From a virus: 64,000 nt of DNA. The translations under genes were made by a program, and so were the position numbers. A model generated the notes under the pieces. It had not been told where the DNA came from. It did no database searches and was given only the letters and a program-made list of their open reading frames with translations. Of the stretch, positions 1,047 through 13,819 are shown piece by piece. The stretch lies in IMG/VR virus record IMGVR_UViG_3300028558_000001, positions 32,001-96,000 of that record, one strand, 5' to 3'. Positions within the stretch are counted from its first letter, which is position 1, and each line of letters begins with the position of its first letter.

Positions 1047-1098
1047 TATTGGTTTAGTCATTACCATAGGTCAAACTGTGGTAATGCATGAACTAATA
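1047..1098 (+). repeat. Intergenic stem/internal-loop/stem element, copy 1
   Basis: tattggtt..cattaccatag-gtcaaa-ctgtggtaatg-catg-aactaata; G-U pairs form only on the + strand. Confidence 0.75.
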
Positions 1099-1112
1099 TA
1101 ATGGAGGGTACA

Positions 1113-1334
1113 ATGCAGAAAGCAAACTTTCTTGATAAGGTCGCTTCTCTCTATCGTTGTGGTAATCGTTCTGACCATGATGAGAAATTGAATAATGCGC
1201 CAGATGAGACTTGGACTAAGCCTGAAATGGCTGGAAAGGCTTGTTGTGCATTGCTTGATGAAATGCTTCAAGCAATGATTAAGTGCAATGCCCTGACTTC
1301 GGAAGATGTTCAGGAAATGTATGATAATCTATGA
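1113..1334 (+). CDS. Hypothetical protein
   Basis: ORF with GGAGG-like RBS just after hairpin copy 1. Confidence 0.65.
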   Translation: MQKANFLDKVASLYRCGNRSDHDEKLNNAPDETWTKPEMAGKACCALLDEMLQAMIKCNALTSEDVQEMYDNL

Positions 1335-1381
1335 TTAGTTAATAGTTGCTCATTAGAAATAGTGAGCAATCATGAACTAAT
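1334..1381 (+). repeat. Intergenic stem/internal-loop/stem element, copy 2
   Basis: attagtt-aata-gttgctcatta-GAAA-tagtgagcaat-catg-aactaat; identical to 2319-2366. Confidence 0.9.
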
Positions 1382-1404
1382 GTAGTTCACAGTGGAGAAA
1401 ACAA

Positions 1405-1563
1405 ATGAGCATGTCTTTTAATGAAGAGTCTGGCTATTACATTGCTAATCATAACAATGGTTATGCAATCTTTAGTTATGAAACCGAAGAAATGGTTTTC
1501 TTCCATGAAAACTTTCGGAAGGTTCTGACTCGCAAGAACAAACTCATGAAGAAGGTCAAGTAA
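1405..1563 (+). CDS. Hypothetical 52-aa protein (below the ORF track cutoff)
   Basis: ggagaaaacaaATG...TAA; MSMSFNEESGYYIANHNNG...KKVK. Confidence 0.65.
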   Translation: MSMSFNEESGYYIANHNNGYAIFSYETEEMVFFHENFRKVLTRKNKLMKKVK

Positions 1564-1564
1564 A

Positions 1565-1768
1565 ATGGTTCTTACTTCTGAAATCGTGAGAGACTATATA
1601 GTATCACTCTATGGTAATATCGAAATCTGTGATATTATTCATGGTGACGATCAAGAACCTAATCGAGACTTCTGGCAAGTCTTCTGTAATATCAATAATA
1701 CAGGTACTCGACTCGTTGTTTGGGTTGAAACCTCAGAAGACGGAGAGAAGTATATTGAGGTCGCTTGA
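1565..1768 (+). CDS. Hypothetical protein
   Basis: Abuts the upstream ORF and ends at hairpin copy 3. Confidence 0.6.
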   Translation: MVLTSEIVRDYIVSLYGNIEICDIIHGDDQEPNRDFWQVFCNINNTGTRLVVWVETSEDGEKYIEVA

Positions 1769-1826
1769 TTAGTTTAAGCCTAGCCATTAGTAGCGCAAGC
1801 TGTATAGTGGCTAGTAGTGAACTAAT
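1768..1826 (+). repeat. Intergenic stem/internal-loop/stem element, copy 3
   Basis: attagttt-aagc-ctagccatta..tagc-GCAA-gctg..tagtggctag-tagtg-aactaat. Confidence 0.8.
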
Positions 1827-1845
1827 AAAACTAAGGAGAAAGCAA

Positions 1846-2319
1846 ATGAATATTGTCAAGCAAACGGCAGAAGGTAAGACTGTCAAGCAGCTTCCTACTT
1901 ACTTTGAAGTTGTCGGCAATGACATTTATCTTGGTTCTCACAAGATCGGTACTCTCAATACTGAAATGTGGTCAACCATGACTGATCTTGTTGTTGAGAT
2001 GCTTGAGAATGATACTACTCAGCTTGAGAAAGATCATGAAGAAGCTTTGAAAGAAGCAGAAGATGATTATGCTCAGAAGCTTGAAGAGTGGGAAGATAAA
2101 GTAGAAGACCTGAAAGAAGAAGTTTCAGGTCTTGAGGCTCTCAATAGAGAGCAAGAGGAAATTCTGAATAGACTTGAACTTGCCGAAGGTGTACTTGGCA
2201 GGATCAAGGAACTTGAAGAAGAAAACGATGAATGGCGCGAGAAAGTCTCTGAGTTGTCACGTAAAGTCAGAGAGTTGACTCCTAAGCCCAAGAGAAACTA
2301 CAATAGGCGAGTTGCCTGA
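1846..2319 (+). CDS. Acidic coiled-coil hypothetical protein
   Basis: aaggagaaagcaaATG start; long E/L/K heptad region. Confidence 0.75.
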   Translation: MNIVKQTAEGKTVKQLPTYFEVVGNDIYLGSHKIGTLNTEMWSTMTDLVVEMLENDTTQLEKDHEEALKEAEDDYAQKLEEWEDKVEDLKEEVSGLEALNREQEEILNRLELAEGVLGRIKELEEENDEWREKVSELSRKVRELTPKPKRNYNRRVA

Positions 2320-2366
2320 TTAGTTAATAGTTGCTCATTAGAAATAGTGAGCAATCATGAACTAAT
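2319..2366 (+). repeat. Intergenic stem/internal-loop/stem element, copy 4
   Basis: Exact copy of 1334-1381. Confidence 0.9.
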
Positions 2367-2388
2367 AGCAATGAAAAGGAGAAAGCAA

Positions 2389-2643
2389 ATGCGTCCGTAT
2401 AAAATGACGGATAACAAAGGTCTACAGCCTGATATGACGGTTGATCTTTGGGCTAAACGTGACAATACTACATCAGGCCGGGGCAAATGGCGCTTGGCGT
2501 GGTGGAAACGTGGTAAGGATAGCTTTGTATATGCCGAAGGCGAATGCTCAGCTAACTATTTTAATACTGCCAAAGATGCATTGGCATATGGATTGCGAAG
2601 GTATGATGAAAAAGGAAAGATTTGGCCTCGCAATGAATACTGA
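2389..2643 (+). CDS. Hypothetical protein
   Basis: aaggagaaagcaaATG start (MRPYK...). Confidence 0.7.
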   Translation: MRPYKMTDNKGLQPDMTVDLWAKRDNTTSGRGKWRLAWWKRGKDSFVYAEGECSANYFNTAKDALAYGLRRYDEKGKIWPRNEY

Positions 2644-2710
2644 TTAGACAGTTTTATTGTGTCAACTAGTTTAGTAAAAAGACTAGTTGACATAAGTAAA
2701 CCTATCTGAT
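2643..2710 (+). repeat. Intergenic long hairpin element, copy 5
   Basis: Upper stem tgtgtcaactagttt/agactagttgacata; lower stem attagacagtttta/taaacctatctgat. Confidence 0.7.
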
Positions 2711-2739
2711 ATGAGGATTGGTTTAGTAAGGAGAAAACA

Positions 2740-2958
2740 ATGATCCAAGTTTATAGAGTGACAATAACCGTCCCTGATAATCATCCTGATAATAAGGATG
2801 GTTTCGCCCTCCGTCGTCAGTTTATTATCGGTCAGCCGGTTATAGACATTATCAGGGATAAGGTGGAAGCAAAGGGTTATGAATTCAGTTGGGCTATTGA
2901 CCATATCATGACGCCGACTGAAATCATGAACGAGATTGCCAAGGAGTTTGAACGATGA
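2740..2958 (+). CDS. Hypothetical protein
   Basis: aaggagaaaacaATG start. Confidence 0.7.
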   Translation: MIQVYRVTITVPDNHPDNKDGFALRRQFIIGQPVIDIIRDKVEAKGYEFSWAIDHIMTPTEIMNEIAKEFER

Positions 2959-3167
2959 ATTTCAGGGTCTATTACCCTGATCTTGGCTTCTATCTTTCTT
3001 CTGCATATCATACACTAGATGATGCTGTACAAGCAGGGAAGAAAATTAGAAACGATTACATCGTGAAGCACATGGGCGGCGAGTCAATTGCCTTTCATGG
3101 AAAATTCGTCGGTTTGGTTGTGGTTCCTGAAAAAAGTTCCAAAACCATGTTGACAAAGCCAAAATGA
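2955..3167 (+). CDS. Hypothetical protein
   Basis: ATGA overlap with the upstream ORF. Confidence 0.6.
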   Translation: MNFRVYYPDLGFYLSSAYHTLDDAVQAGKKIRNDYIVKHMGGESIAFHGKFVGLVVVPEKSSKTMLTKPK

Positions 3168-3178
3168 GTCTTTAGGTT
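3150..3178 (+). promoter_or_regulatory. sigma70-type early promoter
   Basis: TTGACA-N17-TAGGTT with A-tracts upstream. Confidence 0.6.
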
Positions 3179-3239
3179 GTGGTCATGCTCAAGAAAAGGA
3201 GCGACGGCGAAAACGGAATGAAAAAAAGTAGCGATTGAG

Positions 3240-3302
3240 TGGTTTTTTATTGTTGCATTATCTCTAGTACCGTGCTACTGATAATGCAACAGCATGAAAC
3301 CA
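3240..3302 (+). repeat. Intergenic stem/internal-loop/stem element, copy 6
   Basis: tggttt..tgttgcattatc..gataatgcaaca-gcatg-aaacca. Confidence 0.75.
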
Positions 3303-3367
3303 AACAAAAGACGGTTTCAAGTGTGGTAAGTGAAGTTAACAATTAACCCAAACTAGGAGAATGTAAC

Positions 3368-4069
3368 ATGACCAATACCAACGAAAACGCCGCTGTTGTC
3401 GCCGCTCCTGTTTCCAAGGGCCGTGGCAATCCGACCGCGATCAAGTATGGTGCGATCACTTTCAAGTCGATCCGTGCCGCTTCGAACTTCGTCGCCAAGA
3501 AGACTGGCGAGAACCCGAAACTGGTTTACTCCCGCGTTTATCAGCGCGTGAAGGCCGGTCATCCGGTTTCCGAAGCCCTTCGTGCTGCGCCCCTCAAGAA
3601 GGGCAAGGCTGGCATGACTGTTACCATTGGCGCGAAGACTTTCAATTCGCTCATGGATGCTCTCAAGCACAAGTTCAAGAAGGCGACTGCCGAAGAGTTG
3701 TCGGTTCTTTATACTCGCACTCTCGCGCGTATGAAGTCCGGTCTGTCCTTCGATGAGGCGATTGTTTCGCGTGACCTTCGTGGCAAGGCTAACTGCAACG
3801 AAATCACGGTCAATGAAGTGACCTATCCTTCGCTCATTGACGCTATCCGCGCTCTCTACACTGGCTTGACTACCAAGAATCAGGCGGCGGTCTACAATCG
3901 CTTCTCCACTGGCCTCAAGAGCGGCAAGAGCTTCATGGAAATCCTTGAGACTCCTGTTCGCGTCTATCAGAAGTCCAATACTCCGCTCTCCGCTCAGGAG
4001 TCGGTTGAGGCGCTTCTGGAAATGTATCCTGACGCTGATGAAGATGTTGACAACTCTGCTGCGGCCTGA
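3368..4069 (+). CDS. Putative DNA-binding protein with three NUMOD1/HTH-like repeats
   Basis: Three ~52-aa repeats T(F/Y)xS(I/L)xxA...(V/L)YxR...KxG; basic; strong aggaga RBS; C-ending codon bias. Confidence 0.7.
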   Translation: MTNTNENAAVVAAPVSKGRGNPTAIKYGAITFKSIRAASNFVAKKTGENPKLVYSRVYQRVKAGHPVSEALRAAPLKKGKAGMTVTIGAKTFNSLMDALKHKFKKATAEELSVLYTRTLARMKSGLSFDEAIVSRDLRGKANCNEITVNEVTYPSLIDAIRALYTGLTTKNQAAVYNRFSTGLKSGKSFMEILETPVRVYQKSNTPLSAQESVEALLEMYPDADEDVDNSAAA

Positions 4070-4078
4070 TACGGAATA

Positions 4079-4106
4079 AGAGGGAAGGAAATCACTCCTT
4101 CCCTCT
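4079..4106 (+). terminator. Hairpin after the repeat-protein gene (no U-tail; terminator or stability hairpin)
   Basis: agagggaagga-aatcac-tccttccctct. Confidence 0.45.
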
Positions 4107-4283
4107 GCCCCTTGCAATAATTTCTATGAAAGGAATTTCATGATGAGCAAGGAATTTATGGGAATTGAGATTTTAAATGCCTTGAAAGCCATTACTGAAT
4201 TAATTTTTGGTAGTGGCTTTCTTTTACCTTGTTTTCTATGATTGCATATGCTAGATCATATGTGATTATACAAACCAAGTTAT

Positions 4284-4375
4284 GGGGAAGGCTAGTAGCC
4301 GATTGACAGGTAGCAACTGTACATTACGCTCTCGCTAAGCAGATGAATTTGTTGGTGCAATTCCAACGTTCCCCT
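4284..4375 (+). ncRNA. tRNA-like element or degenerate tRNA
   Basis: GGGGAA/TTCCCC acceptor-like stem and T-arm GTTGG-TGCAATT-CCAAC; D and anticodon arms non-canonical; no CCA. Confidence 0.3.
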
Positions 4376-4397
4376 TCTCTTTCTAATGGGTGATCCA

Positions 4398-4815
4398 ATG
4401 TCTATGGATATGAGCAAGCTGAATAAGAATATCGTGAATGATGTAATTGCGTTTCACGATTGGGATAACGAGGAGTCCGGCGAAAGGGCTGCTCGTTATT
4501 TCCTCCTTGCCTCTCCAATTGACGTGCTGCTGGATTATCTGAATTATAATGGTATTCTTGGATATGATACCGATATTAAGAATATCCTGTCCTCTGGTAT
4601 CCATAAGGGAGAATGAAATGTTGGTATTTGACAATCTATACGGTCAGCCACTTAATTGTATCTGTTATATTTCTCCAACTAAACTTGGATATGAGATACA
4701 GCATAGAGGATTTAATGACTATTATAATCAGGAGGTAACAGAAGGAGATTGGCTATATTATCCTTCTGAAAGCCTCATGATGGTTCCCAAGGAAGTTGGT
4801 GATTGGGATTGTTAA
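4398..4815 (+). other. Two small hypothetical ORFs (~4398-4616, 4618-4815)
   Basis: Tandem ORFs; aagggaga RBS before the second. Confidence 0.55.
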
Positions 4816-4873
4816 TCAGTTGACAGGGTAGCTATAGGAGCATATCTTATAGCTACCTCAGTGAACTTGTTAT
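4813..4873 (+). repeat. Intergenic stem/internal-loop/stem element, copy 7 (embeds TTGACA-N17-TATCTT)
   Basis: agtt-gaca-gggtagctatagga-gcata-tcttatagctacct-cagtg-aact. Confidence 0.75.
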
Positions 4874-4899
4874 CATAGAATACTCAAAGGAGAATAAAC

Positions 4900-5445
4900 A
4901 TGGCTATTCCTACCATTACCGTCAAGGTTCCTCACTCGCAGTATGATGGTTCTGTTATTGAACCTGATTCTTTTGCTTATGACATTACCGCTAAGAAGTG
5001 GAAGCATAAGCTTACCATCGCAAGGGAAGTGATTGAAAGCTATACCAAGTCTGTCATCACTCAGGACAACTTGGTTTCTCTTGGTGTTCCCCTGCTCCAA
5101 GAGAAGAATTTCGTGACTCATGATGTTGAGCGGGCTAATCTCCTGCGGGCCTCTGAGATTGCCCCGGAACAGCTTGTGGATGGCAGCATTAGCGGTATCC
5201 GTACTGTCTGCTCCAATGAGCTTACCAAGCTTCCTGAGACTTCTTCTGATACCGATTCCGAATCCTCTGAGAAGAAGGGCAGGGGACGCCGCTCGCGCTA
5301 TCCCTACGCCACCTGTGCGATTGGTGAAAGCTTTGAGATTGACGCTGGCTCTCCTGCGATCACTCTCAATCACAGCCTCATTGGTAATCGTGCCTTTCAG
5401 GTGGAAATCAAGAACGGTCGCTTCCTCATCACTCGCACCAAATAG
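4900..5445 (+). CDS. Hypothetical protein with a C-terminal basic, putatively DNA-binding domain
   Basis: aaggagaataaacATG; C-terminal RRSRYPY..IGESF..FLITR resembles small phage DNA-binding domains. Confidence 0.7.
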   Translation: MAIPTITVKVPHSQYDGSVIEPDSFAYDITAKKWKHKLTIAREVIESYTKSVITQDNLVSLGVPLLQEKNFVTHDVERANLLRASEIAPEQLVDGSISGIRTVCSNELTKLPETSSDTDSESSEKKGRGRRSRYPYATCAIGESFEIDAGSPAITLNHSLIGNRAFQVEIKNGRFLITRTK

Positions 5446-5454
5446 GAGCCTATT

Positions 5455-5941
5455 ATGGCAACTAATTCTCTTGAATATGGTATCGTTACTTCTGCAACAC
5501 CAGAAATCAGGTTGTTTGATAGAAACGACGATAATGTTCATATGAACCCAATGCCCGGTAAAGGTTTCAGGTTCTATCGTAACTCTCCTGAGACTTGCGC
5601 CTTGCAAATCAGGGGAGAAAAGCGTTACGCTCATATCTCACTAAACGTTCCTGAACTGGAACTGTTGAGGGAAGCAATCAATAATGAGATTGATTATCTT
5701 CGTCCTCCTATGGGAACCAAACGATAAGGAGTTAATCATGAAGTACATGACTCGCAATATCTTCTCTAACAAACAATGGAATTGTCAAGCGGTAATCATG
5801 GAGGTTATGGATTCTGTTAGTCCATATGTTGTCATGATCCATCCTATGTATGGTCCCAACAGGATTCAACAGGAGCCTAGGGAATTCAAAACAGAGGAAG
5901 AGGCAATTGAATTTGCCAAGAAGGTGATTGGCGTTAACTAA
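5455..5941 (+). other. Two hypothetical ORFs (5455-5727, 5738-5941)
   Basis: Each has an aggag RBS. Confidence 0.65.
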
Positions 5942-6028
5942 ACTTTGGAGGTTTGACTAATATCTAATTAGGATATGGTTGTTGGGATATAATGATCGTC
6001 AGAATAAAGAGTGTTTGATATAAAGGTT

Positions 6029-6078
6029 GACTAACCAGAATCCATATGGTTTTATAGCTATATGGATTCGAGTGAGTT
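6029..6078 (+). repeat. Intergenic stem/internal-loop/stem element, copy 8
   Basis: gact-aacca-gaatccatatggtt-ttat-agctatatggattc-gagtg-agtt. Confidence 0.7.
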
Positions 6079-6102
6079 TACTTCTTATGAAAGGAAATCA
6101 AA

Positions 6103-7360
6103 ATGGACAAGGACATTAAGACGCTTGAGCAAGAGATTGCGACTCAAGAAGCCTTCTTGTTTAACCTCAAGAAGATTAAGAAAGAGAAAGAGGATGCAAT
6201 TCGAGAGAATGTCAAGCCTATCTTTAAATGGGTTGCTGTGAGGCGTCATCCTCGCCAGCATGATTCCTTTGACTTCATGTATGATACTTCAATTGTAAAG
6301 TATTACATATATCGTGAGTGCATGAACAAGGATGAAATGAGGGCTGCTAAGATTTCTGATTGGAATTGGTCTACTGGTGGCATGGATTACCTGTTTAATA
6401 CTGGTAATGGAATGCTAATCACTGGTATTTCTGGGGGGACTCTTATCTTTAATGCAGAAGAAAAGGATCGTCATCTTTGGCTAGAGGTATCGGAATTCCT
6501 TTGCAAGAATCCTGATGGCGGTGATCTTACTCATATCTTTGTGGGAGAATGAAACTATGGCCGACTTCATTCCAAAAAATATTCCTGCATCTGTAAAGAA
6601 AAGGCTCGTTGATTGGAGTGATGAGCGGAGAACAGAGGGCAGATACTTTCTAGCAACTGCCTATGGATGGGCATTTGAACCATCAGATAATGAAGATATT
6701 GCTCTTCATTGTAAATCATTTGGCACTAGAAAAGAAGCATTTGACTATGTTATGAAATATGTTAAGCCCTGCTCATGCGGAAGATGCATTCGTGGAAAGG
6801 AATGAAACTAATGATTAAGTATGTACAGATCAATGACTTTATCTATCAAGTTATTCTTGATGGGCAAGTCATTGGCAAGATCAATAGGAAAAATGAGGGA
6901 TGGCAATATACTCCGACAGGATCGAAGATAAGCGGGGGTTATTTTCCTACTCTTCGATCCTGTAAACAATCATTGGGGTGTTAACATGACATATACTGAT
7001 AGATTCCTTGGTCAAGATCATACAGTAGTTCAATATATAATTGAAGGACAATATAACCTAAACTGTTCAGATTCCTATGCTGGTAAATGGTCTTATCTAG
7101 GAGATAATATCTTCCCTGAACATTTTGGGGAACGCCATGCAAAGTATGGTGAAAAATGGGTTGATGTATGCCCATTTTTCCTTGCATATAAAGATGGGTG
7201 GCAAGTAACAGGCCATTCGGGATATGCTAAAGAAGAACTGGCGAAGGAAGCATTCTTGCGCTTTATCCAGAATTACCCGCGTGATGGATATTACATAAAT
7301 TTCCGCTTGACAAAGAGAATCGTGACGGTTAAAAACGAGACTGTAGATTCACTGTATTGA
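6103..7360 (+). other. Run of four hypothetical ORFs (6103-6552, 6557-6805, ~6802-6984, 6986-7360)
   Basis: Tightly packed, same strand, RBS-like motifs. Confidence 0.65.
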
Positions 7361-7383: not shown

Positions 7384-8862
7384 ATGGCTAGCATGTTCAA
7401 GTTAATTGATTATGATACTAAAGAAGATTATTTAGATTCATCGGACAATCTTTTCTTATTCGATACTGGAGCCGAAGCCTCTAAGAAGGCCAAGGAAGTA
7501 GAATTTTGGTTTGGTATTAAAGTAGTTGTCAAACCATATATTGTTCCCACGGATGAATGGAAAGATCGTGAACAAGGGCGATTAGATTCGGGTGAGTATA
7601 CTAAGGTCATCCCCGAACTACAAAAGCATTGCTTACCAGAACATTTTGTTCATGTCTCTAAAAAGAACCCAAGTCTCATTGCATATACTGCTAATCCTGA
7701 CAAGGGCGTGGCAGATAAACAGACTCAATCTTCTGTCATGGGCTATCTAGAGCGTTTTGCTCCTACGTTATCTTATAAAGAACGAGAAGAAATTCATCAT
7801 ACTCATATGGATATGTATTGTGCCGTTGAATTAAAGTGGGCGCGTACTCCTGATGAAATTGAGTATGTATATACTCATTATAGTGAAGATGCTTGTTCTG
7901 TATCAGAATCATGTATGAGATATGCTGCTGATGAATTCACGTCTCAATTCCATCCTGTTCGGGTCTATGGCGACTCTGATCTTTCAGTTGCTTATCTAAC
8001 AGATGAATTTGGTTATACTGTTGCTAGGGCGTTAGTATGGGAGGAGAAATTAATCTATTCTCGCGTCTACGGTGGGAATGATGATGGTAATAAACTTCAT
8101 CATCTTCTTAGGAAGAAGGGCTTTAAGAAGTCCTGTGGTTATTATGATGATGGTGAAGAAGATGAGTATACATCTGACAAATCTTTTGATGGCGCATTGC
8201 TTCCTGCCTTCCTTTATGAAGGCGAGTTAGATAATCAGGTTGATGCTCATGTCATGCCATATATTGATGAGGGATCATTCGTTGATCTAATTAAAGTTGA
8301 TGGGAAGAAGAAGTTCAAACTCAATGCTAATTCTTCTTCTGAAAAGTATTATTGCCAGCATACTAATGGTTTAACTCATGATTGTGAAGAATTAGGCGAA
8401 AGGTATCAATGTTATCATTGCACTGATAGATATACCACTACCGATAGTATGCACTATGTTAAGGTAGATCATTGGAGCACAGAATTATTCTGTACCTACT
8501 GTTATAATAACAGAACCTTTTTCTGTGAGGGAACACAAAGGGACTATTATTCTGATAGTTTTGACTGTGTTATCGTTGATGGTAATATGTATGAAGAGTC
8601 ATATGCCGAAAAGCACTTCCGTAAGTGTGAAGACTGCGATGAGTATTCTAAAGAACCATTAATCACAGTAGAGAATAAAGATGACAAAGTAGAAATTTGT
8701 CATGATTGTTTTTGTAACATTTCTTCTACTCTATTCTATGATAGGAAAGATCATCGTCTATACTCAAATGATCTGAGGGAAGAATTTTCAGCAACGGGTG
8801 AAGTTATTCCTGTTAGGGGTATTGACATTACGGTTGCAACGTGTTTCCATGCTCATACGTAA
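7384..8862 (+). CDS. Uncharacterised phage enzyme-like protein (SCM..HPV.VYG..ARA..YSRVYG..MPYID) with C-terminal CxxC Zn-ribbon repeats; paralogue A
   Basis: Clear paralogy with 10750-11832; CYHC, CTYC, CEDC, CHDC. Confidence 0.8.
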   Translation: MASMFKLIDYDTKEDYLDSSDNLFLFDTGAEASKKAKEVEFWFGIKVVVKPYIVPTDEWKDREQGRLDSGEYTKVIPELQKHCLPEHFVHVSKKNPSLIAYTANPDKGVADKQTQSSVMGYLERFAPTLSYKEREEIHHTHMDMYCAVELKWARTPDEIEYVYTHYSEDACSVSESCMRYAADEFTSQFHPVRVYGDSDLSVAYLTDEFGYTVARALVWEEKLIYSRVYGGNDDGNKLHHLLRKKGFKKSCGYYDDGEEDEYTSDKSFDGALLPAFLYEGELDNQVDAHVMPYIDEGSFVDLIKVDGKKKFKLNANSSSEKYYCQHTNGLTHDCEELGERYQCYHCTDRYTTTDSMHYVKVDHWSTELFCTYCYNNRTFFCEGTQRDYYSDSFDCVIVDGNMYEESYAEKHFRKCEDCDEYSKEPLITVENKDDKVEICHDCFCNISSTLFYDRKDHRLYSNDLREEFSATGEVIPVRGIDITVATCFHAHT

Positions 8863-8888
8863 TCGTTAATCAAAAGGAAATAGTTTTA

Positions 8889-9989
8889 ATGTCATTTTCA
8901 CCTGTTCCCACTGTTAGAAAGACATATGATTTGTCTACAATTGATGTACAATCATTGTTAGAAATGATTATCATTCGTCGCCCTGCTCGTTATGAGGGCG
9001 ACGAAGAACTGATTGAACGTTTTCTTGACCCTATTGACGGGATGCAAGAAGATGAGCATGGCAATCGTATTCTAAAGATTGGCGATGCTCCTGTCATGTG
9101 GTCATGCCATACTGATACGGTTCATTCATCTAAGAGCTTCGACAAGTATCAGCGAATTCGTTTTGATAAGGGAATCATTTCCCTTGCGAAGGATGAGAAG
9201 TCGAATTGTTTAGGAGCCGATTGTACTGCTGGTATCTGGATCATGCTCGAAATGATTAAGGGCGGCGTAGAGGGCTTGTATATCTTTCATAGGGATGAGG
9301 AAGTCGGCGGTTATGGCTCTAGCTATGTCGCCAAGCATCATCTTGATTTGATTAAAGATATTAAGTATGCGATTGCCTTTGATAGAAAAGGAAACAGTTC
9401 TATCATCACGCATCAGGCAATGGAACGCTGTGCATCAGATGCATTTGCGGAGTCACTGTCCAAGCTTCTACCTGTTGGTTATCTTAAGGATGATGGAGGA
9501 ACGTTTACTGATACAGCTAACTATACTTCAATCATTCCAGAATGTACCAATATTTCAGTTGGGTATGATGATGCTCATTCATCAAAAGAGTCATTGAATG
9601 TATATGATCTTTTGAGACTTAGGGAAGCAATGCTTAAGTTTGATCATACACAACTTGTTTGTGAGCGTGATCCATCTATCACTGAATATTCAGAAGACTT
9701 CATGCGATATTCTACAAGAACTTCTGCATATCGTTCTTCTTATGGTTTAGATGATTGGGAAGATCGTGATGCTATTTGGAGAAAGCCAGAAGGAAAAAAG
9801 GTTTTCGATCTGACTCCTCATATTGAGGGTATTGATTATGAAGATTATGATCCAGATGAATATCCAAATATGGCATGTAGGACTCTTAAGGAATTCATTA
9901 CCACCTATCCAGATGTTGCTGCTGATTATCTAGAACAACAAGGATATGCGGTAGAGGATTTCTATGAACAATTTCCTTGGCTCGCTTAG
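8889..9989 (+). CDS. M28/M20-family Zn peptidase/amidohydrolase
   Basis: CHTDTVH, LGADCTAG, RDEEVGG, AIAFDR, FTDTANY, NISVGYDDAH. Confidence 0.88.
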   Translation: MSFSPVPTVRKTYDLSTIDVQSLLEMIIIRRPARYEGDEELIERFLDPIDGMQEDEHGNRILKIGDAPVMWSCHTDTVHSSKSFDKYQRIRFDKGIISLAKDEKSNCLGADCTAGIWIMLEMIKGGVEGLYIFHRDEEVGGYGSSYVAKHHLDLIKDIKYAIAFDRKGNSSIITHQAMERCASDAFAESLSKLLPVGYLKDDGGTFTDTANYTSIIPECTNISVGYDDAHSSKESLNVYDLLRLREAMLKFDHTQLVCERDPSITEYSEDFMRYSTRTSAYRSSYGLDDWEDRDAIWRKPEGKKVFDLTPHIEGIDYEDYDPDEYPNMACRTLKEFITTYPDVAADYLEQQGYAVEDFYEQFPWLA

Positions 9990-10000
9990 GACATTACGGA

Positions 10001-10030
10001 TTGACAGGGAGGATGCAGTCTAGTTAGGAT
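10001..10030 (+). promoter_or_regulatory. Possible sigma70 promoter
   Basis: TTGACA-N18-TAGGAT in intergenic space. Confidence 0.45.
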
Positions 10031-10150
10031 ACGAAATGGGCGGCGATTCCAACTGACGGATAGCCTTAAAAGAATGTCAAGTCAGTTATGGTTTATCCCC
10101 CACGGCCATAGATGGACATGAAGCCCAAACAAAATAGAGGGGTTAGAGCA

Positions 10151-10737
10151 ATGATTTGTTTTGCTTCTGCTGACTTTATTACCAAGTTCAATAAAAGAAA
10201 AGGAGTTAGGACATATTGTAATCCTTATTGTTATGATTGCAGAAACAATTGTTTCTCAATTGAAGGACCAAGCCTGTTCATGATCATTCATGATATTATT
10301 CTTTTTCTTGATGAAGAAAATAGGAATTATTCTTGTAGATCAGCACAATATGCTTTTGAAGATTTGATTGGTTTTAGGCTACATGCAAGTGAAAACAAAG
10401 TTATCTTGTATTGGCCTATGATACCGTTTTGTGAAGAAAAAAGAGGAGTATATAACTAGATATGTCAAACATGTATACTAAATCCGGTCAGTTAAGCGCC
10501 GCTGCTCTCAGGAAGGGCTATCAGCATAAAGCCGATGTAAATTATAAAGATCATAAGTTTTCAACAGTTCTTGAATTTGTTGATCACTATAATATGTATC
10601 GCGTCAGACTTGTTCAGAATGATTATAATAACCTTAATTCATGGCATTTTTATTCTGTAAGTGAAACTCGAAAACAGTTTGAAACCGTTTTGGAAGCAGT
10701 TGTTGATGCTGCTGAAAAAGAATATTTACTTGTATAA
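10151..10737 (+). other. Two hypothetical ORFs (~10151-10459, 10462-10737)
   Basis: RBS motifs; tandem arrangement. Confidence 0.6.
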
Positions 10738-10749
10738 TTGGAGTGAAAT

Positions 10750-11832
10750 ATGTTTAAGTTAATTTCTTCATATGCCAAAGCTGACTTCTTAGTTAATGAT
10801 GAATTAAAGTTATTTAGTAAGGGAAAGGACGCGGCAAGGGCTGCTGCCAATCTCCAACTCATCTATGCTATGAGCTATAAGGTTGCTCCTTATGTTAAGC
10901 CATCTAATGAATGGAAGGAACGTGAGCAAGAGAGATTAGATTCTGGTTATCATAAGAAGGTACTGCCAGAACTACAAAAGTATTGCTTACCAGAACATTT
11001 CGTCCATGTCTGTAAGAAGTCTCCTTCTCTCATTGCATATACTGCTAATGATTATAAGGGTGCGAATGACCTACAGACTCAATCCTCAATCTCTGGTTAT
11101 CTAGAGCGGTTTGCTCCATCTGTAAAAGCACAAGAAGTAGAAGTCCTACAAGAAGCACATGATACTGCTTTTGCTTTCACTGATTTAATGTGGGCAAAGA
11201 CTCCAGATGAAATCGTTGAGTGCTATACCAATTTCGATCCTGATACCAAGGGTGTGTCTGACTCCTGTATGAGGTATGAAAACTTTTACGATGAAGGTTT
11301 TGATGGAGATGATGAAGAAAGAGGATGGATCACTCAGGTTCATCCAGTCTATGTATATGGTGACTCTGATATTTCTATTGCCCATCTAAAGAATCTAGAT
11401 GGAAAGGTAGTGGCAAGGGCTGCTGTCTTTGAAAAGAAGAAAGTATATTCTCGCGTCTATGGCTCCAAGGAAACAACCAATAGGCTTCATCAAATTCTAA
11501 AGAAGAAGGGATATAACAAGTCTTCTGGATACTTTAGTGATGCTGGACTAACAGAGTCTTTATATGGTGCTATGCTTCCAGCTATTAAATGGGATACTAA
11601 GTGTAGGTATTATAGGGATCATTATAATTATAGGCATTCTGATGTTTATTATGTAATGCCATATATTGATGAAGAAGATATTGTTACCCTAGTTAAAGGA
11701 GAGACTGAGAAGGATGATTACTTCTTACTTGGTGATCAGTCAATCAAGATTGCTAAAGAAGGAAAGAAGTATTATCTACTAGGCGCTCAAAGTGCTGATG
11801 GAATTACTTCCTATCATGACTTCTCTAAGTGA
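10750..11832 (+). CDS. Paralogue B of 7384-8862, lacking the Zn-ribbon tail
   Basis: Shared EWK.REQ.RLDSG, PELQK.CLPEHFVHV, SCMRY, YSRVYG, VMPYIDE. Confidence 0.8.
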   Translation: MFKLISSYAKADFLVNDELKLFSKGKDAARAAANLQLIYAMSYKVAPYVKPSNEWKEREQERLDSGYHKKVLPELQKYCLPEHFVHVCKKSPSLIAYTANDYKGANDLQTQSSISGYLERFAPSVKAQEVEVLQEAHDTAFAFTDLMWAKTPDEIVECYTNFDPDTKGVSDSCMRYENFYDEGFDGDDEERGWITQVHPVYVYGDSDISIAHLKNLDGKVVARAAVFEKKKVYSRVYGSKETTNRLHQILKKKGYNKSSGYFSDAGLTESLYGAMLPAIKWDTKCRYYRDHYNYRHSDVYYVMPYIDEEDIVTLVKGETEKDDYFLLGDQSIKIAKEGKKYYLLGAQSADGITSYHDFSK

Positions 11833-11846
11833 CTTTCCTCATTGCA

Positions 11847-11930
11847 TTCGGAAAGAACTTCGTTGACTCTGTTCTAGTTATTTGCTATAAAACTTAGTAG
11901 GTGACTAGAAACAGTTACTATCTTTCTGAA
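11847..11930 (+). repeat. Long intergenic hairpin, copy 9 (embeds TTGACT-N17-TATAAA at 11863-11891)
   Basis: ttcggaaaga/tctttctgaa and ttctagttatttgcta/tagtaggtgactagaa with several G-U pairs. Confidence 0.7.
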
Positions 11931-11939
11931 GACATATGG

Positions 11940-11968
11940 ATTATAACAAGTTTTTAAAAGTGTGTCAA
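11940..11968 (-). promoter_or_regulatory. Perfect sigma70 promoter, antisense to the early region
   Basis: Reverse complement reads TTGACA-cacttttaaaaacttgt-TATAAT (N17, extended TG). Confidence 0.75.
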
Positions 11969-11996
11969 GTGTAAAAATCAATTATAGGAGAGAAAA

Positions 11997-12656
11997 ATGC
12001 TAGTAAAGTGTATTGATGTTGGAGATTTTCCTTCGGTACTTACTAAAGGTATGGTATATGAAGCAGAGGATTATCTATACAACAAAAAGTGTTATATGAT
12101 TCGAAATGATAATGGAATGAACGCTCCATATTATAAGTCACGTTTTGAAGAAGTAGATGTTAAGGAAACTAAAGTGCAAGTAAAGTGTATTAAAGTTGAA
12201 GAGTGGGGAACCCATCTTACTCATGGGAAAGTATATACTGCAACCATTGATGGTAAATATTATAAAATTACTAATGACCTTGGTAGAGACAACGCCGGGT
12301 ATTCTAAAGACAGATTTGAAGTAGTGAAGGAGAATGAAATGAAGTTTGAAGTGGGAAAGATTTATGTTACTAATAATGCAACTAAGTATAAAGTTGTATG
12401 TATTGATAAACCCGGTAATGATCCAATTCTTGCCTACGATGTAAAAGAAGGCTATGTATATACCTTTGATAAGGATGGATACAACTATTATCGTGGGACA
12501 CTCAAGGCGTATATTGAACCCAAGAAGTGGTATACTTATGTTTATCTGAATGATAATGGAACTCCTTTTTCTGTTACTTCTGAAACTAGACCTACAGGAC
12601 CATATTATGATGATCGGAAGGTAATTCATACCTTTGAGTTTGAGCTAGGGGGATAA
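11997..12656 (+). CDS. Hypothetical protein: two SH3-like repeats plus a third domain
   Basis: VKCI..LTxGxVYxA..IxND.G..Y.K.RFE twice; internal aaggag RBS and in-frame ATG at 12339. Confidence 0.75.
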   Translation: MLVKCIDVGDFPSVLTKGMVYEAEDYLYNKKCYMIRNDNGMNAPYYKSRFEEVDVKETKVQVKCIKVEEWGTHLTHGKVYTATIDGKYYKITNDLGRDNAGYSKDRFEVVKENEMKFEVGKIYVTNNATKYKVVCIDKPGNDPILAYDVKEGYVYTFDKDGYNYYRGTLKAYIEPKKWYTYVYLNDNGTPFSVTSETRPTGPYYDDRKVIHTFEFELGG

Positions 12657-12704
12657 TCCTTCAAAAATAATTTGGGCCATAATCGCTTTTTTTGAAAATA
12701 AGTG

Positions 12705-12732
12705 TTGACGCGAAATTGGATTCATATATAGT
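12705..12732 (+). promoter_or_regulatory. sigma70-type promoter with UP-like A/T tracts
   Basis: TTGACG-N16-TATAGT. Confidence 0.55.
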
Positions 12733-12797
12733 GAGGACATGGGGAACGAGATACCCCTACGAAATTCTAGTCAAAACTAACTCAGGAGAAATTGATT

Positions 12798-13769
12798 ATG
12801 GCCCATGAAATTGAAAACCTTAACGGTAAAGACTGCTTCGTTTTCGCTGGTCAGCCCGCTTGGCATGGCCTTGGAACGGAAGTTCCTTCCGACCTTACGC
12901 CACTCGAAATGCTCAAGATTGCTGGTCTTGACTGGAATGTGCTTGAAGTGCCGGATACTTATGAATGGCATGGCAAGCAGATTCCGAATGGAAAGAAGTC
13001 TCTCATTCGTGACATTGACGGCAAGTTCCTTACGTCTGTTTCGGATGCATGGAAGCCCAATCAGAACATCGAAGCTTTCAAGTTCTTTAACGAATTTGTG
13101 GAAGCTGGCGATATGACGATGGAAACGGCTGGCTCTCTCAAGGAAGGCAAGCTTATTTGGGCGCTTGCGAAGGTGAAGGATACCTTTGAACTTTTCAATG
13201 GGGATACTGTTGAAAGCCATCTGCTTTTCTCCAATCCTCATGAATATGGCAAGAGCATCAATATTCGCTTCTGTGCTGAGCGTGTTGTTTGCGCTAACAC
13301 GATGGCGATTGCTCTTTCTGAAAAGGCCAAGAGCTTCATTCGCTTCTCTCATCGTCGTGAGTTTGATCCTGATCTTGCGAAAGAACTGCTTGGCATTTCT
13401 CACGAATATATGAACAAGTACAAGGAAGCGGCTGCTTTCATTGGTTCCAAGTTCTACACTCCCGATTCGGTCAAGGATTACATCACTGAATTGTTCCCTG
13501 TTGTTCAAGCTGCCAATGCCAACGGCAAGCCCCGCAAGGAAATCTCCAAGACTGCTCGCCAGATCATGGAAGAAGTGATTGACTCTCAGCCCGGACGTGA
13601 GTTTGCTCGCGGCACCTTCTGGAATGCTTTCAATGCGGTTACGTTCTACACCAACCATCTTGCTGGTCGGACTCAGGACAATCGCGTGAACTCCCTCTGG
13701 TTTGGTGAAGCTGCCAATATCAATATCAAGGCTCTTGATCTTGCTGTTGAGTATGCTAAAGCAGCGTAA
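12798..13769 (+). CDS. DUF932 family protein (phage/plasmid TIGR03299-like)
   Basis: MAHEIE..PAWHGLG..AGLDW.V..QN..AF.F..ETAGSL..G..R.VCANT..GT.W.AFNAVT.Y..H..WFG. Confidence 0.9.
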   Translation: MAHEIENLNGKDCFVFAGQPAWHGLGTEVPSDLTPLEMLKIAGLDWNVLEVPDTYEWHGKQIPNGKKSLIRDIDGKFLTSVSDAWKPNQNIEAFKFFNEFVEAGDMTMETAGSLKEGKLIWALAKVKDTFELFNGDTVESHLLFSNPHEYGKSINIRFCAERVVCANTMAIALSEKAKSFIRFSHRREFDPDLAKELLGISHEYMNKYKEAAAFIGSKFYTPDSVKDYITELFPVVQAANANGKPRKEISKTARQIMEEVIDSQPGREFARGTFWNAFNAVTFYTNHLAGRTQDNRVNSLWFGEAANINIKALDLAVEYAKAA

Positions 13770-13771
13770 AG

Positions 13772-13819
13772 ATTAGCTTTACAGGAGGCATCAGAAATGG
13801 TGCCTCTCATAAAGTTAAT
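13772..13819 (+). repeat. Intergenic stem/internal-loop/stem element, copy 10
   Basis: attagcttta-ca-ggaggcatca-GAAA-tggtgcctct-ca-taaagttaat. Confidence 0.8.

What the first reader, a model, noticed from the sequence alone, without database searches (positions are those of the whole stretch)
1047..13819. Family of about 10 intergenic stem/internal-loop/stem RNA elements punctuating the early region (RNase III-like sites)
Seen: copies at 1047, 1334, 1768, 2319, 2643, 3240, 4813, 6029, 11847 and 13772. Most start at a stop codon and end just before the next RBS. The shared shape is a lower stem (often AUUAGUU/AACUAAU), a small internal loop (typically 4-5 nt per side) whose 3' side is conserved (CAUG/UAGUG/CAGUG/GAGUG then AAC/AGU), and a 10-16 bp upper stem of variable sequence. 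Three have GAAA loops and one GCAA. Many G-U pairs work only on the + strand, and there are no U-tails. Established: T7 early-mRNA RNase III sites have this architecture; RB49-type T4 phages carry promoter/stem-loop cassettes between small ORFs. Inference: a T4-like phage cutting its early polycistron into stabilised monocistrons, T7-style. Alternatively these are binding sites for a phage protein, or promoter cassettes (copies at 4813 and 11847 embed TTGAC-N17 -10-like boxes).
Basis: partly seen in the sequence, partly recalled or inferred. Interest (0 to 1): 0.75.

Follow-up and report, generated by a model that had tools for sequence, protein, structure and literature searches.

The report
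Hairpin connectors between phage early genes
An uncultured T4-like phage joins about twenty unrelated small genes with one standard folded RNA hairpin that closely resembles the sites where phage T7's early message is cut by the host enzyme RNase III. It is a new family of an already familiar kind of phage signal, and no RNA data yet test it.

Summary
The window is bases 32001-96000 of a complete 176.7-kb distant T4-like phage. A covariance model finds 16 strict copies of a 48-59-nt two-tier hairpin, all on the + strand. Five lie in the window (1048, 1334, 1768, 2319, 13772) and eleven just upstream.

2643 is a degenerate composite. 11847 belongs to a different repeat family.

The fold is strongly supported: 96.7% of cells paired, 15 of 20 pairs with compensatory changes, z -5.5 to -7.8, and about 7 kcal/mol more stable as + strand RNA.

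Each copy sits in a fixed connector: stop codon, hairpin, A-rich spacer, GGAG, ATG. The genes it joins are unrelated ORFans. The connectors hold no sigma-70 promoter and no U-tail, so they are not PeSLs in the strict sense and not terminators.

Geometry matches T7 RNase III sites. The helix is about 22 bp with a never-paired internal loop. The apex stack is that of T7 R1.1, and the conserved 3' arm starts 13 nt from the apex, as R1.1's cut does.

Best reading (about 0.5): host RNase III processing and stability signals, which also serve as recombination joints. It is a new variant of a known kind. This scan has noted similar hairpin-punctuated arrays in several other phages.

The parts
1048..1097 (+). 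Strict family member after the UvrD-like helicase gene. It has a 9-bp lower stem (AUUGGUUUA/UGAACUAAU), a GU/CA mismatch loop, an 11-bp upper stem and a GUCAAA loop.
   Evidence: CM R1 63.1 bits on + versus 23.8 on -. Fold -23.3 kcal/mol, z -6.18. The stop codon TAA begins 4 nt before it.
1334..1381 (+). Strict member with a GAAA tetraloop and apex CAUUA-GAAA-UAGUG. Its sequence is identical to the copy at 2319.
   Evidence: CM 59.7 bits, z -6.17. A 51-nt stretch is identical to 2317-2366, and the flanks are unrelated.
1768..1826 (+). Strict member with an extended apex: an extra 4-bp helix capped by GCAA.
   Evidence: CM 52.5 bits, z -5.96. It differs from genome 28037 by a compensatory G:C to C:G swap.
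2319..2366 (+). Strict member, identical to 1334-1381, lying between unrelated genes.
   Evidence: CM 59.7 bits.
13772..13819 (+). The most distant strict member, after the DUF932 gene. The lower stem is AUUAGCUUUA/UAAAGUUAAU and the loop is GAAA.
   Evidence: CM 56.2 bits, z -7.68. Its lower stem shows compensatory changes relative to the consensus.
3240..3302 (+). Marginal relative. It has the same two-tier shape and GCA|UGAAAC on the 3' side, with a 13-bp upper stem and a small apical helix.
   Evidence: CM 16.7 bits, E 0.13, z -6.56.
4813..4872 (+). Shape-only relative with a 14-bp upper stem and CAG|UGAAC on the 3' side. It embeds a promoter-like TTGACA-17-TATCTT.
   Evidence: CM 11.2 bits. 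Promoter scan 10 of 12. z -5.45.
6025..6084 (+). Shape-only relative with a 14-bp upper stem and GAG|UGAGU on the 3' side.
   Evidence: CM 10.2 bits, z -6.59.
2641..2742 (+). Degenerate composite spacer. It holds the stop codon plus a remnant 5' arm (UGAUUAGAC), an unrelated 16-bp hairpin at 2657-2695, and an orphan 5' arm (AUUGGUUUAGU) just before the SD.
   Evidence: The CM matches only the simple hairpin, at 10-14 bits.
11833..11996 (.). Not a member. This spacer belongs to a different four-copy repeat family and carries a perfect TTGACA-17-TATAAT (with TG) on the minus strand at 11968..11940.
   Evidence: copies at genome 43833, 153219, 91019 and 17073. No CM hit.
1098..1115 (+). Example of the downstream half of the connector: an A-rich unpaired spacer, the GGAG Shine-Dalgarno and the ATG. 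The same layout lies at 1382-1407, 1827-1848, 2367-2391 and 13820-13835.
   Evidence: GGAG lies 6-10 nt before the ATG in 16 of 16 loci. The 3' arm lies 22-34 nt before the ATG. The SD is unpaired in the spacer folds.
4184..4221 (+). A 16-bp hairpin followed by a T-run. It is the only terminator-like site on the + strand after the array and is a possible end of the transcription unit.
   Evidence: (terminator scan).

Best explanation
The elements are a lineage-specific family of structured RNA connectors. Each is a 48-59-nt two-tier hairpin that starts at the stop codon of one small gene. An unstructured A-rich leader of 22-34 nt follows, with a GGAG Shine-Dalgarno for the next gene.

The connectors carry no promoter of their own, so the roughly 20 genes at the head of the + strand block are most likely transcribed as one long message.

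The hairpin most likely works like the RNase III signals of the T7 early transcript. Host RNase III binds the quasi-continuous helix of about 22 bp. The always-mismatched internal loop limits cutting to the 3' strand, at or next to the junction before UGAAC, 13 nt from the apex. The upstream mRNA keeps a protective 3' hairpin. The downstream mRNA starts with a standard open leader.

A second, non-exclusive role is as a joint for recombination, because the repeated connectors sit between unrelated genes and copies have exchanged parts.

Shown here: the family, its fold, its strand, its placement, the lack of promoter or terminator features, the likeness to T7 R1.1, and exchange between copies. 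Inferred: the single transcript, early timing, cleavage, the enzyme and the cut position.
For: Family and fold:
- 16 loci at 40-68 bits on the + strand. The same loci score 19-37 bits on the - strand. Nothing else in the 176 kb is credible.
- 96.7% of cells are paired, 15 of 20 pairs have changes on both sides, and 0 of 500 shuffles reach this. Slid controls pair at 28-41%.
- z scores are -5.5 to -7.8.

RNA strand:
- Mean dG is -23.5 kcal/mol on + versus -16.4 on -, with + more stable in 19 of 21 (p 1e-4).
- There are 2-7 G.U pairs per element, and U.G wobbles are conserved at two fixed positions.

Placement:
- The stop codon begins -7 to +2 nt from the element in 16 of 16 loci.
- GGAG lies 6-10 nt before the ATG in 16 of 16.
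- The gaps are a uniform 65-96 nt.

No promoter and no terminator:
- Sigma-70-like sites are at chance level and none lies in a strict element: 40 found versus 40.3 expected, and 21 versus 21.3.
- The genome has many perfect TTGACA-17-TATAAT sites elsewhere.
- The 3' flanks are A-rich and none is flagged as a terminator.

Likeness to RNase III sites:
- T7 early sites folded here have the same plan: a 9-10 bp upper stem, a 3-5 nt loop (GCAA in R0.3 and R1.1), and a 3' loop strand reading UAUGAU or CAUGAA.
- E. coli RNase III substrates span about two helical turns. Internal loops limit cleavage to one strand and leave a protective 3' hairpin. At least an 11-bp helix is needed between cut and tetraloop. 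The distal box is U-A then U.G. Native R1.1 has a U.C pair at proximal-box position 4 (PMC1540722, PMC3867540).
- In our family the 3' arm UGAAC begins 13 nt after the apex in 13 of 16 loci.
- 9 of 16 loci carry the exact R1.1 stack x/UA/UG/AU/CG.
- 5 loci have C.U at position 11.
- Position 9 is A-U or U-A in 13 of 15.
- Model R1 run over T7 1-14000 has its best hit on the R1.1 hairpin, 5859-5887.

Recombination joints:
- The flanking genes are unrelated ORFans.
- Identity between copies begins and ends at the hairpin ends.
- Two stem variants and two apex variants occur in all four combinations.
Against: - There are no RNA data, and the host is unknown.
- No promoter was found ahead of the array. 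The best + strand match between genome 25.0 and 27.85 kb is 8 of 12, so the single-transcript premise is unproven.
- The T7 hit is weak (14.8 bits, E 0.19). It covers only the upper stem and only R1.1. Other T7 sites have different apex stacks.
- By E. coli rules, four copies have G-C or C-G at position 11, which blocks catalysis. Two copies have G-C at position 9, which weakens binding.
- RNase III has little sequence specificity. It therefore does not explain why the lower stem AUUAGUUUA/UGAACUAAU is so conserved in sequence while the upper stem varies. Another protein, or homogenisation by recombination, may be involved.
- The phage encodes no RNase III, dsRBD or RegB (the RegB search had no positive control).
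- No related genome carries the family, so conservation across phages could not be tested.
Confidence: 0.5

Rival explanations
1. The connectors are PeSL-like modular shuffling cassettes without the promoter. They are selected mainly as short repeated DNA homologies at which T4-type recombination inserts, deletes or swaps single ORFan genes. The RNA fold is then secondary, for example a mild attenuator or stabiliser.
For: - Near-identical connectors lie between unrelated genes.
- Identity starts and stops exactly at the hairpin ends; 33334 and 34319 share 51 identical nt.
- Stem variant and apex variant occur in all four combinations at 28037, 33768, 30231 and 30514, which implies exchange inside the hairpin.
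- The degenerate half-elements at 2641-2742 resemble the 'half PeSLs' of PMC4122927.
- The array lies in a block of ORFans typical of a hyperplastic region.
Against: - The defining sigma-70 promoter is absent.
- Homology of 9 + 9 nt plus the SD region is short for homologous recombination.
- Compensatory changes, conserved U.G wobbles, a never-paired internal loop and a fixed 13-nt spacing point to selection on the + strand RNA fold, not just on sequence identity.
- No close relatives are available to show gain or loss at the joints.
Confidence: 0.18
2. The hairpins are decay barriers and insulators that RNase III does not cut. RNase E or another single-strand nuclease cuts in the A/U-rich spacer. 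The hairpin then blocks 3' exonucleases and keeps upstream coding sequence from pairing with the next ribosome-binding site.
For: - The hairpins are stable, at -19 to -28 kcal/mol.
- They are followed by an A/U-rich, unpaired spacer and an open SD in every copy.
- GNRA loops are common.
- T4-type mRNA decay is known to run through RNase E and related enzymes; the T4 review PMC3014915 does not mention RNase III at all.
Against: - A simple barrier needs no conserved mismatch loop. It also needs no fixed 13-nt apex-to-arm distance, no R1.1-like U-A/U.G box and no helix of two turns.
- Selection for stability alone should often close the internal loop. The two loop positions next to the lower stem are non-canonical in most distinct copies; the exceptions are four A/U and one U/A opposite the first position and one U/A at the second.
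Confidence: 0.17
3. The hairpins are binding or cleavage sites for an unidentified phage-encoded RNA-binding protein or endoribonuclease. That protein would recognise the sequence-conserved lower stem and internal loop.
For: - The lower stem and the 3' loop strand are conserved in sequence, while the upper stem is conserved only in structure.
- The family is confined to one phage lineage.
Against: - No candidate partner was found. The array proteins have no Pfam match, and the genome has no dsRBD or RNase III domain.
- Subfamilies keep the fold with different lower-stem sequences at 29157, 29577, 31088 and 45772.
Confidence: 0.08
4. The hairpins are integron attC-like sites that fold in single-stranded DNA and are used by a site-specific recombinase to capture promoterless gene cassettes.
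For: - The architecture is parallel: a same-orientation array of unrelated promoterless ORFs, each followed by an imperfect palindrome with conserved ends, an unpaired central spacer and a variable centre.
Against: - The complete genome has no tyrosine or serine recombinase.
- The arms ATTAGTTTA and TGAACTAAT do not fit the attC core sites RYYYAAC and GTTRRRY (consensus from established knowledge).
- The fixed spacing to the SD and the conserved wobble pairs fit an RNA role.
Confidence: 0.03
5. The hairpins are intrinsic transcription terminators or attenuators.
For: - They are strong hairpins directly after stop codons.
- PeSL stem-loops of RB49 terminate efficiently in a reporter (PMC2839356).
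Against: - No U-tract follows any of them; the 3' flank is A-rich, and none is flagged by the terminator scan.
- About 17 successive terminators without promoters would silence the array.
Confidence: 0.02

Closest known systems
RNase III processing signals of the phage T7 early transcript (R0.3, R0.5, R1, R1.1, R1.3), above all R1.1
   Same: - Both are intercistronic, starting at or next to the upstream stop codon and ending before the next SD.
- Both have a lower stem, an internal loop and an upper stem of 9-12 bp capped by a 3-7 nt loop that is often GNRA, spanning about two helical turns in all.
- The 3' loop strand reads (C/U)AUGA(A/U) in both.
- The R1.1 apex CAUUC-GCAA-GAGUG compares with CAUUA-GAAA-UAGUG or CAUUG-GCAA-CAGUG here, so the U-A/U.G/A-U/C-G stack is the same.
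- A C.U mismatch lies at position 11 in both.
- It is 13 nt from the apex to the R1.1 cut, and 13 nt to the conserved UGAAC here (PMC1540722).
   Different: - The host phage is a T4-like myovirus, not a podovirus.
- There are 16-21 copies, against 5 in the T7 early RNA.
- The internal loop is small and symmetric (2x2 or 3x3), not asymmetric 4-6 nt.
- The lower stem is conserved in sequence.
- No T7 promoter is interleaved.
- Cleavage is untested.
- The similarity is probably convergent or coincidental, not homology.
PeSLs (promoter-early stem-loops) of T4-type phages RB49/phi1, T4/PST and KVP40/nt-1 (PMC2839356, PMC4122927)
   Same: - Both are repeated intergenic cassettes in a hyperplastic region of a T4-like genome.
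- Both run stop codon, stem-loop, SD, start codon.
- Both lie between unrelated ORFans.
- Both contain G-T pairs in the stems.
- There is evidence of exchange between copies, with the crossover within the hairpin.
- Degraded half-elements occur in both.
   Different: - The defining sigma-70 promoter is absent.
- There is no AT-rich UP-like region.
- The stem is AU-rich and two-tiered, not a G-run/C-run terminator-like hairpin.
- No U-tail is present.
- Two marine viral contigs whose DUF932 protein is 42-46% identical do have a PeSL-type unit (GC hairpin with T-run, then TTGACA-17-TATATT) at the position where this phage has the promoterless hairpin.
Integron attC sites
   Same: Both form an array of promoterless cassettes, each ending in an imperfect palindrome with conserved ends, an unpaired central spacer and a variable centre.
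   Different: There is no integrase. The core-site consensus is not met. The features here point to RNA on the coding strand.
Neisseria Correia (nemis) and other palindromic intergenic repeats that are cut by RNase III when transcribed (from my own knowledge, not checked here)
   Same: Both are short palindromic repeats spread between genes, whose transcripts form long hairpins that can be RNase III substrates.
   Different: Those are 100-150-bp bacterial mobile elements with terminal inverted repeats and target duplications. The elements here are 50-nt phage connectors fixed in register with stop codon and SD.

Membership tests
Bacterial RNase III processing signal (T7 R1.1 type) | A double helix of about two turns (about 20-22 bp), which may be quasi-continuous | tested here: met
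   The helix is 9-10 bp lower stem plus 2-3 mismatches plus 10-12 bp upper stem, giving 22-24 stacked positions in all strict members. The requirement is from PMC1540722.
Bacterial RNase III processing signal (T7 R1.1 type) | An internal loop, bulge or mismatch at the target site that limits cleavage to one strand | tested here: met
   The 2x2 or 3x3 loop is mostly purine.A plus pyrimidine.pyrimidine. In most of the 15 distinct sequences it is not Watson-Crick paired. The role of such loops is described in PMC1540722 and PMC3867540.
Bacterial RNase III processing signal (T7 R1.1 type) | A helix of at least 11 bp between cut and apex, with a U-A/U.G distal box | tested here: inconclusive
   It is 13 nt from the apex to the conserved UGAAC in 13 of 16 loci. 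The exact U-A/U.G box is present in 9 of 16, and the U.G at the third pair in 12 of 16. The other copies have A-U/U-A or G.U there.
Bacterial RNase III processing signal (T7 R1.1 type) | No antideterminant pairs in the proximal box (no GC or CG at pb2 or pb4, by E. coli rules) | tested here: inconclusive
   Position 9 is A-U or U-A in 13 of 15 and G-C in 2. Position 11 is a mismatch or wobble in 11 and G-C or C-G in 4. The rules were derived for the E. coli enzyme, and the host here is unknown.
Bacterial RNase III processing signal (T7 R1.1 type) | rnc-dependent cleavage in vivo, or cleavage by the purified enzyme | not testable with these tools
   No RNA data are available, and the phage is uncultured.
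PeSL (promoter-early stem-loop) | A sigma-70-type early promoter (-35, N17, -10) inside the cassette | tested here: not met
   No strict element holds a site of 9 of 12 or better, apart from one borderline 9 of 12 at 1781. Counts equal those of shuffles. The genome has perfect consensus promoters elsewhere.
PeSL (promoter-early stem-loop) | A stem-loop between stop codon and SD/start of small ORFan genes in a hyperplastic region | tested here: met
PeSL (promoter-early stem-loop) | Copies mediate insertion, deletion or replacement of genes between close relatives, and form mini-circles | not testable with these tools
   No close relative was found. Only within-genome exchange between copies is seen.
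Integron attC site | An integron integrase (tyrosine recombinase) in the element | tested here: not met
   PF00589 and PF00239 are absent from the complete genome, and the controls rang.
Integron attC site | Core sites R'' RYYYAAC and R' GTTRRRY at the ends | tested here: not met
   The arms are ATTAGTTTA and TGAACTAAT. Neither strand fits the consensus, which I take from established knowledge.
Intrinsic terminator | A G+C-rich hairpin followed by a U-tract | tested here: not met
   None of the elements is flagged, and the 3' flanks are A-rich.
Any Rfam family | A match at the gathering score | tested here: not met
   There were no matches in the window or in the 40 kb upstream.

The most novel reading that the evidence does not exclude
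The sequence-conserved lower stem and mismatch loop (AUUAGUUUA ... N-A-N/UGAACUAAU) are read by an as yet unrecognised phage-encoded endoribonuclease or RNA-binding protein, not by host RNase III. The array would then be a self-contained phage mRNA-punctuation system whose connectors also act as the crossover points for swapping single genes.
Probability: 0.1. Interest if true: 0.75.

Novelty: new variant of a known kind. Interest (0 to 1): 0.48.

Why it matters
If these hairpins are cut by RNase III, a T4-type phage would organise its first genes the way T7 does: one long message cut into stabilised single-gene mRNAs. In known T4 relatives each gene instead has its own promoter, as in PeSLs. 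RNase III is not part of the known T4 post-transcriptional repertoire; the T4 review PMC3014915 never mentions it.

The family makes a sharp, cheap prediction: a cut 13 nt 3' of the apex, just before UGAAC, that depends on the mismatch loop and the U-A/U.G box.

The family also shows, within one genome, that such connectors exchange parts. This ties RNA punctuation to the modular shuffling of ORFan genes.

The general design has turned up repeatedly in this scan in unrelated phages. The class therefore seems common and under-described, not unique to this phage.

Tried and rejected
Searches that found nothing:
- Rfam over the window and the 40 kb upstream gave no family.
- Near and distant DNA searches in the phage collection gave nothing.
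- An exact-motif scan of IMG/VR gave 109 single matches, about the chance level, and no contig with two.
- Relatives were sought through the UvrD-like helicase (IMG/VR and metagenomes), DUF932 and the 492-aa protein. The best were 36-64% identical, and none has the family next to the gene.
- The CM run over four large viral genomes gave one hit. It lies inside a coding region and has no upper stem, so it is a chance match.

Readings tested and rejected:
- Promoter cassette: rejected for the strict family.
- Terminator: rejected, since there is no U-tract.
- attC-like site: rejected, since there is no recombinase and the core sites do not fit.
- Phage-encoded RNase III, dsRBD or RegB: none was found. 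The RegB search had no positive control, so that absence is weak.
- Gene duplication as the source of the repeats: rejected. Only 2 weak pairs occur among 43 proteins, and neither links adjacent cassette genes.

Steps that did not work as hoped:
- A sliding 70-nt MFE scan was too noisy to be useful.
- The T7 records in the collection do not annotate the RNase III sites. The site names were therefore assigned from gene positions, the folds and PMC1540722. The exact coordinates of the other T7 cuts are from memory only.
- The promoter that drives the array was not found.

Full report
**What the DNA is.** The window is bases 32001-96000 of a single 176,660-bp virus record with direct terminal repeats, rated complete. 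It is 37% G+C. It encodes T4-type baseplate, tail, terminase, RNA ligase and ribonucleotide reductase proteins. Its gp6-like wedge protein is only 33-35% identical to those of Caulobacter phage Cr30 and Sinorhizobium phages phiM12 and phiN3. It is therefore a distant, uncultured T4-like myovirus. Genes run on the + strand from about genome 27.3 kb to 58 kb, and on the - strand after that.

**Checking the observation.** Hairpins with a lower stem, an internal loop and an upper stem are present at all ten coordinates. All ten elements tested, seven strict members and three shape relatives, fold far better than dinucleotide shuffles, with z from -5.5 to -7.8 and 0 of 200 shuffles as good.

A descriptor search over the whole genome showed that the family continues upstream of the window. 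I built a covariance model from twelve tightly bounded copies. It finds 16 loci at 40-68 bits, all on the + strand:
- genome 27779, 28037, 28279, 28615, 28882, 29920, 30231, 30514, 30785, 31088, 31440
- window 1048, 1334, 1768, 2319 and 13772

Nothing credible appears anywhere else in the 176 kb.

- 3240 scores 16.7 bits (E 0.13).
- 4813 scores 11.2 bits and 6029 scores 10.2 bits, so they share the shape only.
- 2643 is matched only as a plain hairpin. It is a degenerate composite with a remnant 5' arm, an unrelated 16-bp hairpin and an orphan 5' arm before the SD.
- 11847 is not matched. Its whole spacer (11833-11996) recurs at genome 153219, 91019 and 17073. It also carries a perfect TTGACA-17-TATAAT on the minus strand.

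Two more upstream junctions (genome 29157, 29577) hold the same two-tier shape with a different, mutually similar lower stem.

**Anatomy.** The consensus runs as follows:
- The lower stem is 9-10 bp, AUUAGUUUA paired with UGAACUAAU, and includes a conserved U.G.
- The internal loop is a symmetric mismatch of 2-3 nt per side. It is usually purine opposite A, next to pyrimidine opposite pyrimidine.
- The upper stem is 10-12 bp and variable in sequence, except for a conserved ...GCAUU / AGUGC... core.
- The apex is GAAA, GCAA, a 6-7-nt loop, or an extra 4-bp helix capped by GCAA.

On the 15 distinct sequences, 96.7% of cells form standard pairs. Fifteen of 20 pairs show changes on both sides, in 50 cells. 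No shuffle in 500 reaches these values, and sliding the 3' partner by 1-3 columns drops pairing to 28-41%.

The fold belongs to the + strand. Mean energy is -23.5 kcal/mol on + against -16.4 for the reverse complement, and + is more stable in 19 of 21 elements (p 1e-4). This is because each element has 2-7 G.U pairs, which would be A.C mismatches on the other strand. The model also scores the + reading 20-40 bits higher.

**Placement.** From genome 27783 to 34740 there are 19 consecutive gene junctions. Fifteen carry a strict member and two carry the shape variant. One carries the degenerate composite, and one has no spacer because the genes abut. The gaps are a uniform 65-96 nt.

In all 16 strict loci the upstream stop codon begins 7 nt before to 2 nt inside the element. 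A GGAG lies 6-10 nt before the next ATG. The 3' arm lies 22-34 nt before that ATG. The spacer after the hairpin is A-rich and unpaired in the folds. The unit is thus a standard connector: stop, hairpin, open leader with SD, start.

**What the connectors are not.**
- They hold no sigma-70-type promoter. Promoter-like sites are at the chance level (40 versus 40.3 expected, and 21 versus 21.3). None of 9 of 12 or better lies in a strict element, except a borderline one at 1781. This is not because the phage avoids the consensus, since perfect TTGACA-17-TATAAT sites occur at ten other places in the genome.
- The variable distance between the two conserved arms also rules out a split promoter.
- No U-tract follows any element. 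About seventeen terminators in a row without promoters would silence the array.
- There is no T4-late TATAAATA in the region.
- Rfam has no match.
- The genome has no tyrosine or serine recombinase, and the arms do not fit the attC core sites. The tempting parallel with integron cassette arrays therefore fails its defining tests.

**Comparison with T7.** I folded the T7 early intergenic spacers. R0.3, R0.5, R1, R1.1 and R4.7 show a 9-10 bp upper stem, and R1.3 a longer one of about 13 bp. All are capped by a 3-5 nt loop (GCAA in R0.3 and R1.1) and followed on the 3' side by UAUGAU or CAUGAA. Here the 3' side reads CAUGAAC, UAUGAAC or UAGUGAAC.

The literature sets these rules for the E. coli enzyme (PMC1540722 and PMC3867540):
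- Substrates typically have two helical turns.
- Internal loops or mismatches restrict cleavage to one phosphodiester, which leaves a protective 3' hairpin.
- An 11-bp helix between the cut and the tetraloop is the minimum.
- The distal box is U-A then U.G.
- G-C or C-G is an antideterminant at proximal-box positions 2 (binding) and 4 (catalysis).
- Native R1.1 has a U.C pair at position 4.
- The 28-nt product implies a cut 13 nt after the GCAA loop.

Read against these rules, the family shows the following:
- The helix has 22-24 stacked positions.
- The 3' arm UGAAC begins exactly 13 nt after the apex in 13 of 16 loci (12 nt in two, 14 in one). This holds however the 13 are split between stem and loop.
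- Nine loci carry the R1.1 stack (closing pair, U-A, U.G, A-U, C-G), and twelve have the U.G.
- Five have C.U at position 11.
- Position 9 is A-U or U-A in 13 of 15.

As an unbiased check, I ran the model built only from this phage over T7 bases 1-14000 with filters off. It gave two hits. The better one (14.8 bits, E 0.19) lies on the R1.1 hairpin, 5859-5887, aligned upper stem to upper stem. The score alone is not significant. However, a random best hit would land on one of the eight or so known sites in roughly 1-2% of trials. That estimate uses site positions I hold from memory of Dunn and Studier 1983, because the records here do not annotate them.

Against the RNase III reading: four copies have G-C or C-G at position 11 and two have G-C at position 9. 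Other T7 sites have other apex stacks. RNase III does not explain why the lower stem is conserved in sequence.

**Evolutionary behaviour.** The 43 proteins of the block are unrelated to one another, apart from one short match and one pair of large paralogues outside the array. The twenty array proteins tested have no Pfam family.

Similarity between copies begins and ends at the hairpin. The copies at 33334 and 34319 share 51 identical nucleotides (stop codon plus element) between unrelated flanks. The copies at 28279 and 30785 have identical stems and different loops.

Two stem variants differ by a compensatory G:C to C:G swap plus two loop changes. Two apex variants are GAAA and a 15-nt GCAA-capped extension. 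All four combinations of stem and apex variant occur, at 30231, 30514, 28037 and 33768. This points to exchange inside the hairpin, as was mapped for PeSL mini-circles in RB49 (PMC2839356). The connectors therefore also behave as recombination joints.

In two marine viral contigs whose DUF932 protein is 42-46% identical, that gene is followed by a true PeSL-type unit: a GC-rich hairpin with a T-run, then TTGACA-17-TATATT. In this phage the promoterless hairpin holds that position.

**Limits.**
- No close relative carries the family in INPHARED, IMG/VR or the metagenome contigs. All covariation is therefore among paralogous copies of one genome, and gain or loss of cassettes could not be tested.
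- The promoter that drives the array was not found. The 2 kb upstream (genome 25.25-27.3 kb) is ORF-poor, G+C-rich and repetitive, and matches nothing known.
- The host is unknown.
- The phage encodes no RNase III, dsRBD or RegB, so any RNase III would be the host's.

**Verdict.** The finding is a real, uncatalogued, lineage-specific RNA element family. It is larger and cleaner than reported, once four of the ten listed copies are set aside as outliers and one as foreign to the family.

The most likely function (about 0.5) is that of T7-type RNase III processing and stability signals on a promoterless polycistronic message, with a second role as recombination joints between ORFan cassettes. 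The main rivals are a PeSL-like recombination cassette whose fold is secondary (0.18) and an uncut decay barrier and insulator (0.17).

It is a new variant of known kinds, namely T7 RNase III signals and PeSLs. Notes of this scan describe comparable hairpin-punctuated early-gene arrays in several unrelated phages, which lowers the surprise but suggests the class is widespread.

Noticed in passing
L001:5250-7300 (genome 25.25-27.3 kb, just upstream of the window and of the hairpin array): About 2 kb has no convincing ORF. G+C rises to 55% in a 37% genome. An 11-bp tandem repeat (TACTTCGTAGG, about 9 copies) lies at L001 5503-5599, along with several 25-32-nt direct repeats. There is no Rfam hit even at E 1 and no match in the phage collection. 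It could hold the unidentified promoter of the array, an origin or a non-coding RNA.
   Followed up: partly
window 11833-11996: This spacer has a perfect TTGACA-17-TATAAT (with TG) on the minus strand at 11968..11940, inside an all-plus gene block. The spacer is one of four copies of a repeat (genome 43833, 153219, 91019, 17073). It is probably an antisense small-RNA unit.
   Followed up: partly
window 7384-8862 and 10750-11832: Two large proteins (492 and 360 aa) are paralogues, 45% identical over 359 aa. They have no Pfam or PHROG family, and the 492-aa one found no relatives in IMG/VR.
   Followed up: no
window 3368-4069: This 233-aa ORF has 54% G+C in a 37% genome and follows a 200-nt spacer. 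It is probably a recent foreign acquisition, and it has no family.
   Followed up: no
window 4069-4400: A 330-nt spacer holds three strong hairpins, at 4079-4106, 4184-4221 (with a T-run, terminator-like) and 4237-4270. It also holds a possible 34-aa hydrophobic ORF at 4140-4244. It may mark the end of the first transcription unit.
   Followed up: no
L139:6190-6330 and L140:527-660: In two marine viral contigs the DUF932 gene (42-46% identical) is followed by a GC-rich hairpin with a T-run and then TTGACA-17-TATATT. This is a PeSL-type terminator-promoter unit, at the position where this phage has a promoterless two-tier hairpin.
   Followed up: partly
genome-wide (for example genome 91027, 91974, 105708, 108159, 153221 on +; 138703, 1077 on -): Ten perfect 12-of-12 sigma-70 consensus promoters are present in the genome, far from the hairpin array. 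The phage clearly uses host-consensus promoters elsewhere.
   Followed up: no
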